DNA of 64,000 bases from Acidimicrobiia bacterium (GTDB lineage: Bacteria > Actinomycetota > Acidimicrobiia > Spongiisociales > ZC4RG35), in contig JBGTNX010000017.1 in assembly GCA_041742825.1 (NCBI GenBank), forward strand, positions 7,716 to 71,715. Reading direction: 5' to 3'. A program made the position numbers and the translations under genes. The notes beneath the pieces are model-generated. The model saw only the letters and a list, made by a program, of their open reading frames with translations. It searched no databases and was not told the origin of the DNA. Shown here one piece after another: positions 4,524 to 56,350 of this stretch. Positions within the stretch are counted from its first letter, which is position 1. Every line of letters starts with the position of its first letter.

Positions 4524-5549
4524 TTACGACAGAGCGGCCAGCAGCCCATCGACATCGTCCCGGTCGACGTCGCGATGGGTGACCAGGCGCCAGCCACCGA
4601 GCATGGGCGGGTTCGCTCGCACTCCCGCGTTGTCCAATCTCCCTTTGATCTCATTCCAGGCCATACCCAGAGCCTCGCTATCGACGCGGACCATGTTGGT
4701 CTCCACATCTGCCACGTCCACCGACCCGGGAAATCGCTCTGCAAGGCCTGCGGCGAGGTAGGCGGCGAGGTCATGGTCCTCAACTAGCCGCTCCCTCTCC
4801 GAAAGTGCAACCCGCGCGGCAGCGGCGATGACCCCGGCCTGGCGCATGCCTCCTCCCAGCCTCTTCCGCAGGTACCTGATCTCGGATATCGAATCCCGCG
4901 GTCCGCAGACGATGGAGCCGACCGGCGCTCCCAGGCCCTTGGAGAAACAGAACTGGATGGTGTCGGCGTGTTTCGACCAGGTCGCCGCGTCGATTCCGGT
5001 TGCGGTGACCGCGTTGAAGATACGAGCCCCGTCGATATGGACCTTGAGCCCTCTTGCTGTCGCAGTTGCCGAAGTCTCTTTGAAGATCTCATACGGGATC
5101 ACCCGGCCGCCGGAGAGATTGTGGGTGTTTTCCCAAACCATGAGGCTGATCCTGGGAAAGAACCCGACTGCGTCCATTGCCCGGTCGACGTCTCCGGGCA
5201 TTATCTGACCGTTGGGGTTGGAGACGGTCCGGAACCCGACACCGGAGAGGGCCTGGGGTGCGCCGCCCTCGATGCTCCTGACGTGGCTAGCCTCGTTGGC
5301 CAGCACCTCCTCACCGGGGCTGGTGTGGAACATGATCGACAGTTGATTGCCCATTGTGCCGGTCGGGACGTAGATTGCGGCTTCCTTGCCTGTGACCTCG
5401 GCGGATTCCTCCTCCAGGAGGTTCACGGTGGGATCGTCGTGATAGACGTCATCCCCCACCGGAGCGTCTGCCATCGCCTCGAGCATTGCCGGAGTGGGCC
5501 GGGTGACCGTGTCGGACCTGAAATCGGCGCTGCCGTCGCGAAAAGCCAT
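4524..5549 (-). CDS. ltaE: low-specificity L-threonine aldolase (PLP-dependent)
   Basis: FRSDTVTRPT...GDDVYHDDPT...PTGTMGNQL and FSKGLGAPVGS (Lys) motifs typical of beta-eliminating lyase/threonine aldolase family. Confidence 0.8.
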   Translation of the reverse strand: MAFRDGSADFRSDTVTRPTPAMLEAMADAPVGDDVYHDDPTVNLLEEESAEVTGKEAAIYVPTGTMGNQLSIMFHTSPGEEVLANEASHVRSIEGGAPQALSGVGFRTVSNPNGQIMPGDVDRAMDAVGFFPRISLMVWENTHNLSGGRVIPYEIFKETSATATARGLKVHIDGARIFNAVTATGIDAATWSKHADTIQFCFSKGLGAPVGSIVCGPRDSISEIRYLRKRLGGGMRQAGVIAAAARVALSERERLVEDHDLAAYLAAGLAERFPGSVDVADVETNMVRVDSEALGMAWNEIKGRLDNAGVRANPPMLGGWRLVTHRDVDRDDVDGLLAALS

Positions 5550-36882: not shown

Positions 36883-37530
36883 TCAGACCTCTTCGGCTAC
36901 CGGGAACAACCGGTACAGCCCGAAGGCCACCAAGGCCCCGACGAGGGGAAACACCAGGTAGACCCAGACGTCAGTGAAATTCCCGGACACGATCGCCGGG
37001 GCGAATGAGCGGGCGGGATTCACAGAGGCTCCCGAGAACGGGATTCCGGCGAGGTGGACTCCGACGAGGGTGAGAGCGATCGCAGTGGGAGCGGCCTTCC
37101 CACCAGAGCGGACCGCGGCCATAACCACCCAGACTAAGATGGCAGTGAGCGCTATCTCCATGAGAATGCCCGTGCTCAACTGTTCGAACGTTGTCCGGGT
37201 CCCTGCGACCACGTCGGTGCTGGAAGCACCGGCGACGATGAGTGATCCCACTGCAGCGCCGGCGAACTGGGCCACCCAATACCCGATCGAATCACTCAAG
37301 GTGATCCTCTTGTCGAGGAGCATCGCCAGGGTCACCGCAGGGTTGAAGTGGGCACCGGAGACATGCCCGAGGGCCCATATGCCGGCAAGCAGTGATAGGC
37401 CGAAAGCGAGTGCGATCGCGATGATCTCAGCCGCCCCGGTTGCCCCGCCGACTGCGAGGATCCCCATCGTGCCTCCGAACACGAGGATCAGGGTCCCCAT
37501 GAATTCAGCCAGATATTTGTTGATAACCAA
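36883..37530 (-). CDS. aqpZ: MIP-family aquaporin
   Basis: Two NPA boxes (HFNPAVT, SVNPARS), six TM helices. Confidence 0.9.
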   Translation of the reverse strand: MVINKYLAEFMGTLILVFGGTMGILAVGGATGAAEIIAIALAFGLSLLAGIWALGHVSGAHFNPAVTLAMLLDKRITLSDSIGYWVAQFAGAAVGSLIVAGASSTDVVAGTRTTFEQLSTGILMEIALTAILVWVVMAAVRSGGKAAPTAIALTLVGVHLAGIPFSGASVNPARSFAPAIVSGNFTDVWVYLVFPLVGALVAFGLYRLFPVAEEV

Positions 37531-37649
37531 GACGAGCTCCTCCTGTAGTCAAGCCAGACCTTCGACCCGTCGGCCATCCGAAAGGTTTCCAAACAGGCTC
37601 AGGCTATGCCGGGAGAAGTCTCACGGGACGGATTCCCAGGTCACGGCGA

Positions 37650-37677
37650 CAAGAAGGCCCCCGGTGGGGGGCCTTCT
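37650..37677 (-). terminator. stable hairpin, probable ancestral rnpB 3' terminator/processing hairpin
   Basis: 11-bp stem aagaaggcccc/ggggccttctt, 6 nt beyond the distal copy of the rnpB 3'-end repeat; no clear U-tract. Confidence 0.45.
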
Positions 37678-37683
37678 TCACGT

Positions 37684-37711
37684 CTGCGAGTCGATCTGTA
37701 AGCCGGATTCT
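37684..37711. repeat. 28-bp direct repeat (displaced copy of the rnpB 3' end; att site)
   Basis: ctgcgagtcgatctgtaagccggattct is identical to 39397..39424. Confidence 0.9.
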
Positions 37712-38127
37712 TTTACGAGCATCGTGCTGACCTGGAACAGTCCCCGGTTTTGGCCGTCTGACCTGGACAAACAATCTCCCGGTAGTTCTATCGGGTTCTA
37801 AACGTTTCTATCTGATTCAACGACCGCTTGTTGAAAAATCTGTTGAACGAAAGCGCCCGACGCCGGGCCGCATAGCTAGTGCCATTCACACGTTTAGATA
37901 CCTCAGCACTGCGGCCGGTCCTACGACATTGAACAGGCGATCTTCGATCGGCGGCATACTGTTCTCGCAGGGCGACCTTTGGGAGCCATTCGCCCGATCC
38001 GACTTCGACGATTCCGAAGACCACCCTGGCATTGACGGGCACCGATTGGCCCGGGCATCGTGCAGGAGAGGCGCGGCCACGGTCTACAGCCGGCGCGATT
38101 GATGTGCCTGGGGCCGCGCACCGACGG

Positions 38128-38724
38128 CTATGGAGCGCCAACGCCCAGGGGACTTGCTGTGGCCTCGTAGCTCGGCGAGCTGTACGGAATGCTCAACGAT
38201 GCGAGCCCGAGGAGAAGCCAACTAACGCCGATACAGGCGTACCAGATAGCGTCTGAAGGGTCCCAGACGTCGGGTGCGAGGGCGTGAAATCCGTAAGTTA
38301 TGGCACCGGCAGCGGCCGTCGTTAGCGGGACCCACTTCGCCCACCCCGGAAAGACCACGGAACGCAGGACCCCAAAACCAAGGACGATAAAGGCGACCGG
38401 GAGGACGAAGAGCCCGACGGAATAGGCGAGCAAGAAGGCGAGGAAGGTGTCACCTGGCAATAGTTCGAGTCCAAACCCGACACCGAGCACCGTTGCACAT
38501 GCTCCAACCAATCTGCTGCCGAGGCGAGGGGTCCTACGGTCGATCGACCGCGCCACTGACCAGAGCCCCCACCCAACCGAAAGACCGGCAAGAAGCGCGA
38601 GGAGGGGAAAGGCTATTGGGAACGAGTCGTCAGAGTCCTCATACGTCAATTCCAAGACGACGATGCCGGCGAGCCAGGCCATGCCACCAGCCGAGATGAT
38701 GAAACCACGCGCTCTTGCTGTCAT
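38128..38724 (-). CDS. hypothetical polytopic membrane protein (island cargo)
   Basis: 198 aa with about 6 hydrophobic helices; no family recognised. Confidence 0.5.
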   Translation of the reverse strand: MTARARGFIISAGGMAWLAGIVVLELTYEDSDDSFPIAFPLLALLAGLSVGWGLWSVARSIDRRTPRLGSRLVGACATVLGVGFGLELLPGDTFLAFLLAYSVGLFVLPVAFIVLGFGVLRSVVFPGWAKWVPLTTAAAGAITYGFHALAPDVWDPSDAIWYACIGVSWLLLGLASLSIPYSSPSYEATASPLGVGAP

Positions 38725-38847
38725 CCTGGGAACCTAGTCCCGACAGTCTCGACATGCTCCCCACAATCAACGAGACATCTCGGCCCATTTGGCGAATTCC
38801 AGCTCCCGATTCCTCGATCCACGCCGGGACGCGCTCCAACTTCCCTT

Positions 38848-39266
38848 GACCGCGTCGACTTTCTCAGAGGTAGGTCAGGGTCGACAGGCAATTAGTAACC
38901 CCGGCGAAAGGTGACCCCCATTTCGGTCCGGTAAAGCGTGCCGCGTCAACCCGGGTAGTTCCACTTCCGAAAGTGGTAGGGGACGCGCTTACTTTCCACT
39001 TACAAGAGTTCGGCGCTGGCCCGGACGGGCTGATATTCACAAACGAGCGAGGGACACCGATCCGGCGCAGCCCGATCTCGACAGTCGTTCGGCGTGCTGG
39101 TGATGTGGTCGGGATTGCGAAGGGTTATGGATTCCACGAGTTGCGCCACCACTACGCATCTCTGCTGATTTCATCAGGTTGTTCGGTATCCGTCGTGCAG
39201 CGTCGTCTCGGCCATGCCACGGCGCAGAAGACGTTGGACACCTGCTCGCAACCTATGGCCGGATGA
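38848..39266 (+). pseudogene. tyrosine recombinase/integrase, C-terminal catalytic fragment (truncated, frameshifted, Tyr to Cys)
   Basis: ...DRVDFLRG (one frame) then VRVDRQLVTPAKG..PVKRAASTRVVPLP...GFHELRHHYASLLISSG..VQRRLGHATAQKTLDTCSQ (next frame). The HxxR box is present, the catalytic Tyr codon reads TGC, and the N-terminal domains are missing. Confidence 0.8.
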
Positions 39267-39365
39267 CGACGAAAAGACCACTCAGGCCGTCGATTCGCAG
39301 CTCGGGCCAGCACTGCTCGTCGAATCTTGTTTGAATCAAGATGTCTCACAACCATCCGAAATGGC

Positions 39366-39393
39366 CTAAACCCCCTGGTTAAAGGGGGTTTAG
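39366..39393 (-). terminator. hairpin immediately 3' of the current rnpB
   Basis: 10-bp stem ctaaaccccc/gggggtttag with 8-nt loop abutting the proximal repeat; supplied by the inserted DNA. Confidence 0.45.
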
Positions 39394-39396
39394 ACG

Positions 39397-39424
39397 CTGC
39401 GAGTCGATCTGTAAGCCGGATTCT
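39397..39424. repeat. 28-bp direct repeat (3' end of intact rnpB; att site)
   Basis: Identical to 37684..37711. Confidence 0.9.
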
Positions 39425-39775
39425 GTGACCTGTCGCGCTCTGGCAATGCCGGAACGACAGTAACGACCATCCATCTAGGCGAACTGTCTCCAGTTCGCTC
39501 GAGCGGCCCACCCGGGATATTCAGCGGGCCGCTGATCCCTGCTTGGCCTTGCTCCTGGTGGGGTTTACAAGCTGCCCCGGTCGCCCGGGGCACTGGTGGT
39601 CTCTTACACCACCTTTTCAACCTTGCCTGTGTCCGGAGACCATCGGCGGTTTGTTTTCTGCTGCACTTTCCGTCGGGTTGCCCCGCCTGGGAGTTACCCA
39701 GCACCGTGCCCTGTGGAGTCCGGACTTTCCTCGTCTCCGCAAAAGCGGAGCCGCGGCCGTCCAATCGACTCGCTG
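39397..39775 (-). ncRNA. rnpB: RNase P RNA, bacterial type A
   Basis: The minus strand reads GCGAGUCGAU...GAGGAAAGUCCGGACUCC (CR-I)...GGUGUAAGAGACCACC...ACAGAAUCCGGCUUACAGAUCGACUCGC. The P1 strands GCGAGUCGAU/AUCGACUCGC pair. Length about 380 nt; ends approximate. Confidence 0.9.
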
Positions 39776-39783
39776 ATCCAATT

Positions 39784-40152
39784 CTACCTGGTTCTACGTC
39801 CCCCGATGACCCCGCCAATGCCACCGACGACTATTGAGACCAGGGCAAGCAATAGGACATTCCAGATCGATGCCGACGCCCCGCCGAGACTTGCGAGCAG
39901 GATCAGCATTCCCCCGAGAAGAAGGCCGCATACCGACCCGTGGAACCGGTTGGAGTGGAGCGCCATCCTCCCGGCAATCCATCCTCCGACAACGAGACCC
40001 GCGAGGAGCCCGATCAGCAGCCCGATGGTCGGGCCGTTATTCACATCGGCGAGAGCCAGGCCGCCTCCGACGAGAAACCCCACGACCGTAATCGCGAGTC
40101 CCCCTGCAGCCACTCCCATGACCACGGCCTGAATACTCAAGGCTGCGAGCAT
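39784..40152 (-). CDS. glycine-rich small membrane protein
   Basis: 122 aa, four Gly-zipper-like TM helices; unknown family. Confidence 0.5.
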   Translation of the reverse strand: MLAALSIQAVVMGVAAGGLAITVVGFLVGGGLALADVNNGPTIGLLIGLLAGLVVGGWIAGRMALHSNRFHGSVCGLLLGGMLILLASLGGASASIWNVLLLALVSIVVGGIGGVIGGRRTR

Positions 40153-56273: not shown

Positions 56274-56350
56274 TGGTGGGCGTTGAGGGACTCGAACCCC
56301 CGACCCCTGCCTTGTAAGGGCAGTGCTCTAGCCAACTGAGCTAAACGCCC
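56274..56350 (-). tRNA. tRNA-Val (anticodon TAC), CCA encoded
   Basis: Hand-folded cloverleaf: acceptor GGGCGTT/AACGCCC, D-arm GCTC-AGTTGGCTA-GAGC, anticodon arm CTGCC-CTTACAA-GGCAG, T-loop TTCGAGT; 77 nt. Confidence 0.92.

What the first reader, a model, noticed from the sequence alone, without database searches (positions are those of the whole stretch)
37684..39424. RNase P RNA gene (rnpB) used as an integration site: decayed island bounded by a perfect 28-bp repeat of the rnpB 3' end
The last 28 nt of rnpB (ctgcgagtcgatctgtaagccggattct, 39397..39424) cover the P1 3' strand and part of the conserved ACAGAAUCCGGCUUA element. They recur exactly at 37684..37711. Between the copies lie three things. 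One is a tyrosine-integrase C-terminal fragment placed next to the intact rnpB; it is frameshifted near 38870, lacks its N-terminal domains, and has the catalytic Tyr codon changed to TGC. The second is a single membrane-protein gene. The third is about 400 bp of visibly AT-richer non-coding DNA. A strong hairpin lies just outside each repeat copy (37650..37677 and 39366..39393). This is consistent with the original rnpB terminator having been displaced to the far end. The arrangement is the classical tRNA/tmRNA-type 3'-end integration signature, applied to rnpB. I do not know rnpB as a commonly reported target. The element appears immobilised.
Basis: seen in the sequence. Interest (0 to 1): 0.7.

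Follow-up and report, generated by a model that had tools for sequence, protein, structure and literature searches.

The report
Decayed mobile element in RNase P gene
[quoted passage not shown] Its relatives show that a large group of actinobacterial integrases use this essential ribozyme gene as their landing site, a target I found in no paper searched.

Summary

- **Site:** rnpB (Rfam RF00010, 305 bits) lies at 39396..39772 (-). Its last 28 nt recur exactly at 37684..37711.
- **Contents of the 1,685 bp between the copies:** the C-terminal 45% of a tyrosine integrase, a 198-aa hydrophobic ORF with no family match, and a non-coding arm. The integrase fragment carries two frameshifts, an in-frame TAG and a Tyr-to-Cys change.
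- **Empty sites:** two related metagenome contigs show rnpB, then a GC hairpin, then about 110 nt, then the aquaporin gene. The 154-158 bp spacing matches what removing the island would give.
- **Occupied relative:** another contig has the same flanks, a 23-bp repeat and a different cargo gene.
- **Wider picture:** of the 80 best integrase matches in genomes, 61 had rnpB in the same locus. In 43 it lay 41-289 bp past the integrase stop, convergent, and most of those integrases are full length (about 365-430 aa).
- **Free and integrated forms:** eleven further loci show 23-37-bp repeats 2-10 kb apart. A 15-kb viral contig carries a free attP. Arthrobacter phage TripleJ has the rnpB 3' end right after its integrase gene.

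The mechanism is the classical tRNA/tmRNA type. The target gene appears to be unreported.

The parts
39396..39772 (-). rnpB, complete bacterial class A RNase P RNA gene; the target gene, regenerated intact
   Evidence: Rfam RF00010, 305.3 bits, E 5.5e-99, model positions 1-367 of 367
39397..39424 (-). attL core: the last 28 nt of rnpB (AGAAUCCGGCUUACAGAUCGACUCGCAG in RNA sense), covering part of the conserved 3' element and the P1 3' strand
   Evidence: Exact 28-bp direct repeat; 2 copies in the window, 0 in shuffles; position in rnpB from the Rfam alignment
37684..37711 (-). attR core: the displaced native copy of the rnpB 3' end
   Evidence: Exact repeat; colinear with empty sites L095/L096 from here through the hairpin to the aquaporin gene
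39366..39393 (.). Element-supplied hairpin (CTAAACCCCCT-GGTTAA-AGGGGGTTTAG) between the integrase stop codon (TAA 39367-39369, inside the stem) and the rnpB 3' end; presumed two-way terminator that now ends rnpB transcription
   Evidence: -22 kcal/mol, z -3.9; the same hairpin type follows rnpB in the occupied relatives L001, L002, L005, L006, L007 and in L085 and L109, but not in the empty sites
38839..39369 (+). Tyrosine integrase pseudogene, equal to residues about 202-367 of an intact 375-aa relative. Frameshift and in-frame TAG at about 38865-38873; catalytic Tyr to Cys (TGC 39243-39245); +1 frameshift at about 39250. The N-terminal 200 aa (arm-binding and core-binding domains, first catalytic Arg) are deleted
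   Evidence: PF00589 E 4e-13; PHROG 1 E 2e-18; tblastn against L005 integrase, 74% and 86% identity in two frames; three-frame translation
38128..38724 (-). Cargo ORF, 198 aa, 5-6 hydrophobic segments, no known family; GC3 0.68 against 0.72-0.78 in three neighbouring core genes
   Evidence: ORF list; no hit in Pfam, PHROGs or NCBIfam; no tblastn relative in the loci fetched; composition and hydropathy. Not shown to be expressed
37712..38127 (.). Non-coding distal arm of the island. 37712-37855 is homologous to the same arm of the L002 island. It carries the only two CTGACCTGG copies in the window (37727-37735, 37758-37766), candidate integrase-binding sites
   Evidence: blastn 73% over 202 bp to L002 6361-6558; motif search; family-wide motif statistics; GC 58.7%
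37651..37678 (-). Native rnpB terminator hairpin, now stranded at the far end of the island
   Evidence: -31 kcal/mol, z -5; a homologous hairpin directly follows rnpB in integrase-free relatives L095, L096, L100, L107, L122
36883..37530 (-). Aquaporin (MIP) gene, chromosomal flank on the distal side
   Evidence: PF00230 E 2e-48; MIP-rnpB neighbourhood conserved in 21 metagenome loci
39784..40152 (-). Small membrane protein (weak DUF3792/TIGR04086 match), chromosomal flank upstream of rnpB
   Evidence: a DUF3792 gene is the called neighbour of rnpB in L001, and a 124-aa gene with no Pfam hit holds the same position in L002

Best explanation

The element carried, just downstream of its integrase gene, a copy of the last 28 or so nt of rnpB plus its own hairpin terminator. 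Recombination between that attP core and the chromosomal rnpB 3' end left an intact rnpB. Past the crossover point, its 3' end and terminator now come from the element. The native 3' fragment and native terminator were pushed 1.7 kb away, next to the aquaporin gene.

The element then decayed in place. About 200 N-terminal codons of the integrase and nearly all other element genes were deleted. The rest of the integrase gene collected two frameshifts, a stop codon and loss of the catalytic tyrosine. What remains is the integrase tail, one hydrophobic ORF, and the distal arm.

Shown: the repeats, the pseudogene, the empty sites, and intact relatives at the same target. Inferred: the recombination event itself, termination by the hairpin, and the order of the decay steps.
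For: - Exact 28-bp repeat of the rnpB 3' end.
- Integrase pseudogene abutting rnpB.
- Empty sites L095 and L096 with the predicted spacing, and a homologous native hairpin.
- L002 has the same flanks, a 23-bp repeat and a different cargo gene (LPXTG protein), yet its distal arm is homologous to the window's.
- In L002 the rnpB-side copy gives a C.A mismatch with the P1 5' strand, while the displaced copy would pair perfectly. This shows which copy is native.
- 61 of 80 genome loci with a related integrase contain rnpB, and 43 have the same convergent layout 41-289 bp away. My estimate of the chance expectation for a 20-kb locus is about 0.5%.
- Eleven other loci show 23-37-bp repeats of the rnpB 3' end 2-10 kb apart.
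- L174 holds a free attP: xis, four GCCAATC repeats, a 33-nt rnpB 3' core with no other rnpB sequence, then int.
- Phage TripleJ has the rnpB 3' end immediately after its int stop codon.
- A conserved element-borne motif lies next to the core in 39 of 45 occupied sites and 0 of 16 sites without an integrase.
Against: - No experiment was done; integration is inferred from sequence alone.
- The empty sites come from relatives whose aquaporin is only 65-67% identical to the window's, not from sister strains.
- The window's two cores are identical, so the crossover point and the origin of the present rnpB 3' end cannot be read from the window itself.
- The origin of the 198-aa ORF (original cargo or later arrival) is unknown.
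- The window's source organism could not be identified; exact-protein look-ups failed.
Confidence: 0.9

Rival explanations
1. The remnant is not dead. It is a non-autonomous island that a related, intact rnpB-specific integrase and excisionase, brought in by another element, can still excise and move.
For: - Both 28-bp cores are perfect.
- The distal arm keeps two CTGACCTGG motifs, and the integrase-side arm keeps the inverted TTAACCAGG.
- Intact relatives exist in the same bacterial class: L005 and L007.
Against: - No circular junction or second copy is seen.
- The element lacks any replication, packaging or transfer gene, so excision would usually mean loss.
- Zero changes in 28 bp is expected by chance for a young remnant.
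- The full set of arm sites is unknown.
Confidence: 0.15
2. The retained integrase tail and hairpin are kept by selection rather than by chance, because the hairpin now ends rnpB transcription. This would explain why truncated fragments beside rnpB recur in Acidimicrobiia.
For: - Truncated integrase tails next to rnpB recur in the window, L001, L002, L006 and L082, with different break points.
- L085 and L109 keep only the element-type hairpin after rnpB.
- The integrase stop codon lies inside the hairpin.
Against: - The simpler reading is that deletions reaching an essential gene are lethal, so the adjacent piece is merely the last to go.
- The window copy carries frameshifts and a stop, so no protein function is retained.
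- No test of selection was run.
Confidence: 0.2
3. The repeat arose without an integrase, by local duplication or illegitimate recombination, and the integrase fragment is an unrelated neighbour.
For: None beyond the fact that short repeats can arise by chance or slippage.
Against: - 28 of 28 identity, with none found in shuffles.
- The same architecture occurs with intact integrases in dozens of genomes.
- A free attP exists.
- Empty sites exist.
Confidence: 0.01

Closest known systems
Genomic islands and prophages that integrate into the 3' part of tRNA and tmRNA genes through tyrosine integrases (the Islander class; for example the sublocation classes of Williams 2002, recalled from memory and cited in PMC12540744 and PMC4383910)
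   Same: - Tyrosine integrase encoded next to the att site.
- The element carries a copy of the target's 3' end, so the gene is regenerated.
- The displaced 3' fragment marks the far end.
- The target is a conserved, structured, single-copy RNA gene.
- In-place decay leaves an integrase fragment beside the gene.
   Different: - The target is rnpB, the catalytic RNA of RNase P, not a tRNA or tmRNA.
- The core covers the P1 3' strand, which must pair with a 5' strand about 350 nt away. An element from a different host can therefore introduce a helix mismatch, as seen in L002.
- The element also replaces the gene's terminator.
Enterococcus phage phiEf11 integration into ffs, the 4.5S/SRP RNA gene (PMC12540744, 2025)
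   Same: A temperate-phage tyrosine integrase with its attP core a few tens of nt from the integrase gene end, targeting a non-tRNA housekeeping RNA gene. That paper presents its site as novel and lists only tRNA/tmRNA and csRNA as known RNA-gene targets.
   Different: A different RNA gene, a different phylum and an unrelated integrase. The phiEf11 site was confirmed by PCR in lysogens; the rnpB site here rests on sequence comparison only.
Arthrobacter phage TripleJ (NC_049470), an isolated temperate siphophage listed as a singleton
   Same: Its integrase is the closest phage relative of the clade in the phage collection (38.5% identity to the Mycolicibacterium clade member L035). An rnpB 3' end-like sequence, ACAGAACCCGGCGTATCGGTCAACCCATCCAC, starts 17 nt after the integrase stop.
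   Different: - The core lies on the same strand as int, the opposite of the window's layout, so the integrase would end up at the distal end of the prophage, as in L004.
- It is a full 45-kb phage.
- I found no published statement of its attachment site.
Capsid-forming phage satellites (cf-PICI-like elements)
   Same: Intact clade members are small: 8.5 kb in L036 and 15 kb in L174. They carry integrase, a cI-like repressor and a replication initiator, plus head or packaging genes (major capsid; in L174 also portal, large terminase and an excisionase-like ORF). Pfam and PHROGs scans returned no tail-gene match.
   Different: Satellite status (dependence on a helper phage) is untested. The window's remnant keeps none of these genes.

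Membership tests
Tyrosine recombinase / phage integrase (PF00589) | Catalytic domain recognisable by profile | tested here: met
   PF00589 E 4e-13, 50 bits against a cut-off of 27.1, profile positions 66-162 of 172; PHROG 1 integrase E 2e-18
Tyrosine recombinase / phage integrase (PF00589) | Complete catalytic set Arg-Lys-His-x-x-Arg-His/Trp-Tyr | tested here: not met
   In the window copy the first Arg region is deleted and the Tyr codon is TGC (Cys). Lys, HELRH and LGH are present. The set is complete in the intact relative L005. The window copy is therefore a pseudogene of a family member, not an active member.
Tyrosine recombinase / phage integrase (PF00589) | N-terminal arm-binding and core-binding domains | tested here: not met
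   No homology upstream of 38839 to residues 1-200 of L005. L005 itself has Phage_int_M plus PF00589.
Integrase islands in the 3' ends of structured RNA genes (tRNA/tmRNA type) | Direct repeat made of the target gene's 3' end and a displaced copy, bounding the insert | tested here: met
   28 of 28 bp at 39397-39424 and 37684-37711; position within rnpB
Integrase islands in the 3' ends of structured RNA genes (tRNA/tmRNA type) | Target gene regenerated intact | tested here: met
   Full-length RF00010 match at 305 bits
Integrase islands in the 3' ends of structured RNA genes (tRNA/tmRNA type) | Unoccupied site in related genomes | tested here: met
   L095 and L096 read rnpB, hairpin, aquaporin with a 154-158 bp gap. 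The relatives are moderately distant (aquaporin 65-67% identical).
Integrase islands in the 3' ends of structured RNA genes (tRNA/tmRNA type) | Target is a tRNA or tmRNA gene | tested here: not met
   The target is rnpB. The only tRNA in the window is at 56277-56350, 17 kb away.
Integrase islands in the 3' ends of structured RNA genes (tRNA/tmRNA type) | Demonstrated integration and excision (attP x attB recombination) | not testable with these tools
   Indirect support only: the free attP on viral contig L174 and the attL/attR pairs in 12 loci.
Phage satellites (PICI-like) | Module of int, repressor, excisionase and replication genes, with packaging or capsid genes but no full virion gene set; dependence on a helper phage | tested here: inconclusive
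   Gene modules are seen in the relatives L012, L036 and L174. Helper dependence cannot be tested, and the window remnant has lost these genes.

The most novel reading that the evidence does not exclude
A clade of tyrosine integrases spread across Actinomycetota uses the 3' end of the essential ribozyme gene rnpB as its attachment site, and this has not been described. Its carriers include Acidimicrobiia, Nocardioides, Mycobacterium/Mycolicibacterium, Janibacter, Terrabacter, Pseudonocardia and Geodermatophilus elements, small capsid-encoding satellite-like elements, and probably the isolated Arthrobacter phage TripleJ.

Integration swaps in the element's own P1 3' strand and terminator. Mobile elements can therefore write mismatches into RNase P RNA, as in L002, and can blur rnpB's use as a phylogenetic marker. 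The site would also offer a new single-copy landing pad for integration vectors in actinobacteria.
Probability: 0.55. Interest if true: 0.7.

Novelty: new variant of a known kind. Interest (0 to 1): 0.55.

Why it matters
The mechanism is textbook, but the target is not. RNase P RNA is an essential ribozyme present once per genome, so it gives mobile elements a safe and universally conserved landing site.

- **Gap in current catalogues.** The published description of the Islander island finder limits it to tRNA and tmRNA genes (PMC12424338). Islands at rnpB would be missed or, I infer, filed as intergenic.
- **Effect on the ribozyme.** The element supplies the 3' strand of helix P1, which must pair with the gene's 5' end. 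This may limit host range, and it can introduce helix mismatches; one case, L002, is seen here. The element also replaces the gene's terminator.
- **Marker use.** rnpB is used as a species marker in mycobacteria (PMC6582537, PMC4524478). Element-derived 3' ends could distort such comparisons.
- **Practical use.** Intact members from Mycolicibacterium, Nocardioides and other cultured genera could give new site-specific integration vectors.

For this window alone the result is modest: a dead 1.7-kb remnant.

Tried and rejected
- **Source organism.** Exact-protein look-ups of the window's aquaporin and of the 198-aa ORF found nothing on record.
- **Identity of the 198-aa ORF.** No hit in Pfam, PHROGs or NCBIfam, and no relative in the loci fetched by that point. 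I ran no further search on it.
- **An inverted att copy that could explain the inversion of the rnpB block among relatives.** None found with up to 3 mismatches or by the repeat finder.
- **Integrase relatives with no rnpB in the locus.** I first read these 18 loci as possibly targeting another site, then rejected that. They are scattered through the tree, and many carry a core-only rnpB 3' fragment next to int. Only one has tRNAs nearby.
- **First motif pattern.** My first regular expression for the conserved attL motif was too narrow (6 of 45). The corrected pattern gave 39 of 45 against 0 of 16. My first IUPAC search for the core in phage TripleJ also failed; reading the sequence showed it.
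- **Literature.** Ten full-text searches and eleven papers read gave no report of rnpB as an attachment site. Williams 2002 (PMC100330) is not held, and the search for the 2020 TIGER paper did not return it, so neither was checked.
- **Not attempted.** dN/dS on the integrase tails, structure prediction, and the 1.84-billion-protein representative search. None would change the verdict.
Full report
**1. What is in the window**

Rfam finds one complete class A RNase P RNA gene at 39396..39772 on the minus strand (305 bits, E 5.5e-99, model 1-367 of 367). The 28-mer CTGCGAGTCGATCTGTAAGCCGGATTCT occurs exactly twice in 64 kb, at 39397-39424 and 37684-37711. No shuffle gave a match, even with three mismatches allowed. 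In RNA sense the repeat reads AGAAUCCGGCUUACAGAUCGACUCGCAG. That is part of the conserved ACAGAAUCCGGCUUA element plus the entire 3' strand of helix P1.

A strong hairpin lies just outside each copy. One is at 37651-37678 (-31 kcal/mol, z -5). The other is at 39366-39393 (-22 kcal/mol, z -3.9).

**2. The 1,685 bp between the copies**

There are three components.

(a) An integrase pseudogene on the plus strand, 38839-39369. It matches PF00589 (E 4e-13) and PHROG 1 (E 2e-18). It aligns to residues about 202-367 of an intact 375-aa relative, at 74% and 86% identity in two reading frames. Its lesions are:
- loss of the first 200 or so codons;
- a frameshift and an in-frame TAG at about 38865-38873;
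- TGC (Cys) where the catalytic Tyr codon should be, at 39243-39245;
- a +1 insertion at about 39250.

Its TAA stop (39367-39369) lies inside the hairpin stem, 27 nt from the end of rnpB.

(b) A 198-aa ORF on the minus strand, 38128-38724. It has 5-6 hydrophobic segments and no family match. Its GC3 is 0.68, against 0.72-0.78 in three neighbouring core genes.

(c) A 416-bp non-coding stretch, 37712-38127.

The island is 59.3% GC against 62.4% for the window, in the lowest 1% of same-size windows. The non-coding part alone is at the 8th percentile.

**3. Empty and differently filled sites in relatives**

A metagenome scan with the window's aquaporin returned 21 loci that also hold rnpB.
- In L095 and L096, rnpB is followed directly by a GC hairpin, about 110 nt, and the aquaporin start. 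The gaps are 154 and 158 bp. In the window the distance from the distal repeat copy to the aquaporin start is 154 bp.
- The alignment is colinear from the core onward and diverges exactly at the core's upstream edge.
- A homologous native-type hairpin also follows rnpB directly in the integrase-free loci L100, L107 and L122.
- L002 has the same flanks as the window, a 23-bp repeat 2,092 bp apart, a truncated integrase next to rnpB and a different cargo gene, an LPXTG protein. Its distal arm is 73% identical to the window's over 202 bp.
- In L002 the rnpB-side copy reads GACGGACUC, which leaves a C.A mismatch against the P1 5' strand GAGCCCGUC. The displaced copy, GACGGGCUC, would pair perfectly. 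The displaced copy is therefore the native one, and the present 3' end came from the element.

**4. The integrase family**

All 145 protein hits to the repaired fragment carry PF00589 or match it. The closest are short or truncated pieces from Acidimicrobiia contigs. Four checked on long contigs all lie within 4 kb of rnpB.

A scan of one genome per species returned 528 relatives; the best 80 were kept. Among these 80:
- 61 have rnpB in the locus.
- 43 have its 3' end 41-289 bp past the integrase stop, convergent, as in the window.
- 9 have the same orientation but lie 0.5-5.6 kb away.
- 9 have rnpB upstream and co-directional.

By my estimate a random 20-kb locus would contain rnpB about 0.5% of the time. 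Most of these integrases are full-length ORFs of 365-430 aa, including the Acidimicrobiia members L005 (375 aa) and L007 (378 aa).

Hosts named in the records include Janibacter hoylei, Nocardioides, Marmoricola, Mycolicibacterium, Mycobacterium, Terrabacter, Pseudonocardia, Geodermatophilus, Actinotalea, Actinomycetospora and Ornithinimicrobium.

The 18 loci with no rnpB are scattered through the tree. Many carry a core-only rnpB 3' fragment beside int. These could be free attP sites, tandem arrays or contig cuts. Only one has tRNAs nearby.

**5. Ends, sizes and content of intact elements**

- Repeats of 23-37 bp of the rnpB 3' end lie 2.1-9.9 kb apart in eleven further loci (L002, L004, L012, L027, L036, L040, L044, L049, L067, L073, and L032 only).
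- The identity block usually starts in or just after ACAGAAYCC and runs to the end of P1 or a few nt beyond.
- L012 (Nocardioides, 8.8 kb) carries int, a cI-like repressor, an excisionase and a replication initiator. L036 (Marmoricola, 8.5 kb) adds an HK97-type major capsid protein.
- Viral contig L174 (15.1 kb) shows a free attP. It reads: an excisionase-like ORF, four GCCAATC repeats, a 33-nt rnpB 3' core with no other rnpB sequence, then int, convergent. The contig also encodes portal, large terminase, HNH, a replication initiator, a repressor and a major head protein.
- Several other viral contigs of 9.5-13 kb end at this integrase.
- In the isolated Arthrobacter phage TripleJ, whose integrase is 38.5% identical to the L035 clade member, the sequence ACAGAACCCGGCGTATCGGTCAACCCATCCAC starts 17 nt after the integrase stop. 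The RNase P model picks it up weakly (E 0.13 in 500 bp). There the core is on the integrase strand, which predicts the L004-type layout with int at the distal end.

**6. A family signature next to the core**

The motif T[GA]A[ACG][CT][AT]G[CG], typically CTGACCTGC or CTGACCAGG, sits 41-45 nt from ACAGAA in 39 of 45 occupied rnpB ends. It is absent from all 16 ends without an integrase. It occurs in 0.65% of random 22-nt windows. Its inverse, CCAGGTCA, lies upstream of the distal core in 8 of 11 islands.

The window keeps both arms. TTAACCAGG lies within the hairpin at the rnpB side. The only two CTGACCTGG copies in the 64 kb are at 37727-37735 and 37758-37766. These are candidate integrase-binding sites; that role is inferred, not tested.

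**7. Mechanism**

- Shown: the attL/attR architecture, the regenerated target, the empty sites, the free attP, and intact integrases at the same target.
- From established knowledge of tyrosine integrases: the element's attP core recombined with the chromosomal rnpB 3' end. rnpB now ends in element DNA and at the element's hairpin, and the native end and terminator are displaced.
- Inferred: the hairpin terminates both rnpB and int. Deletions then removed everything except the parts nearest the two ends and one ORF.

Truncation points differ between the window, L001, L002, L006 and L082, and cargo differs between the window and L002. These are therefore independent decays, not one inherited remnant.

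**8. Comparison with what is known**

This works like the tRNA/tmRNA 3'-end islands and like phage phiEf11 at ffs (PMC12540744). It fails one defining feature of the tRNA/tmRNA class, the target gene, so I file it as a variant of that kind and not as a member.

The window's integrase is a pseudogene of a PF00589 member.

Ten full-text searches and eleven papers read gave no report of rnpB as an attachment site. The 2025 ffs paper lists only tRNA/tmRNA and csRNA as known RNA-gene targets. The library lacks many subscription papers, and large island catalogues could hold such cases unremarked. Novelty is therefore probable, not certain.

**9. Verdict**

- The window's feature itself is an ordinary dead island.
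- The interest lies in the target gene and in the breadth of the integrase clade that uses it.

Noticed in passing
window 36883-40152, compared with L001, L088, L090, L098-L100, L105-L122: The rnpB plus small-membrane-protein block is inverted relative to the aquaporin gene in most relatives (16 of 21 metagenome loci, and L001). The window, L002, L085, L095, L096 and L103 share the other orientation. No inverted att copy was found that could explain this.
   Followed up: partly
L002 8480-8827 and 6397-6419: The element-derived P1 3' strand creates a C.A mismatch in helix P1 of RNase P RNA. The displaced native copy would pair perfectly.
   Followed up: yes
L085 about 5260-5300; L109 about 892-952: rnpB is followed by the element-type hairpin (AAACCCCC...GGGGGTTT), but no integrase homology is detectable. 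These look like still more eroded remnants in which only the element's terminator survives.
   Followed up: partly
L174 7275-7390: Four GCCAATC repeats lie between the excisionase-like ORF and the 33-nt rnpB core on a 15-kb viral contig. They are candidate arm-type integrase sites in a free attP.
   Followed up: no
L166, L168-L171, L175-L179 (IMG/VR contigs of 9.5-13 kb): Many viral contigs of about 10 kb end at or near an integrase of this clade. Together with the capsid gene in L036 and the head and packaging genes in L174, this suggests a family of small capsid-encoding, satellite-like elements in Actinomycetota.
   Followed up: partly
L072 4505 and 7783: Two rnpB 3' core copies 3.3 kb apart flank an integrase, and no full rnpB was detected in the 7.9-kb contig. 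This may be a contig cut just before rnpB or part of a tandem array.
   Followed up: no
L004 3701-8394: A 4.3-kb island with a 30-bp repeat has its integrase fragment at the far end, pointing at the displaced copy. This is the layout predicted for phage TripleJ, whose core lies on the integrase strand.
   Followed up: partly
L041 and L057: Two rnpB-adjacent clade members come from MAGs labelled Candidatus Sericytochromatia and Candidatus Dormiibacterota. This could be real spread beyond Actinomycetota or mis-binned contigs.
   Followed up: no
window 56277-56350 (-): A tRNA gene, the only other Rfam hit in the window. It was not examined for an island.
   Followed up: no
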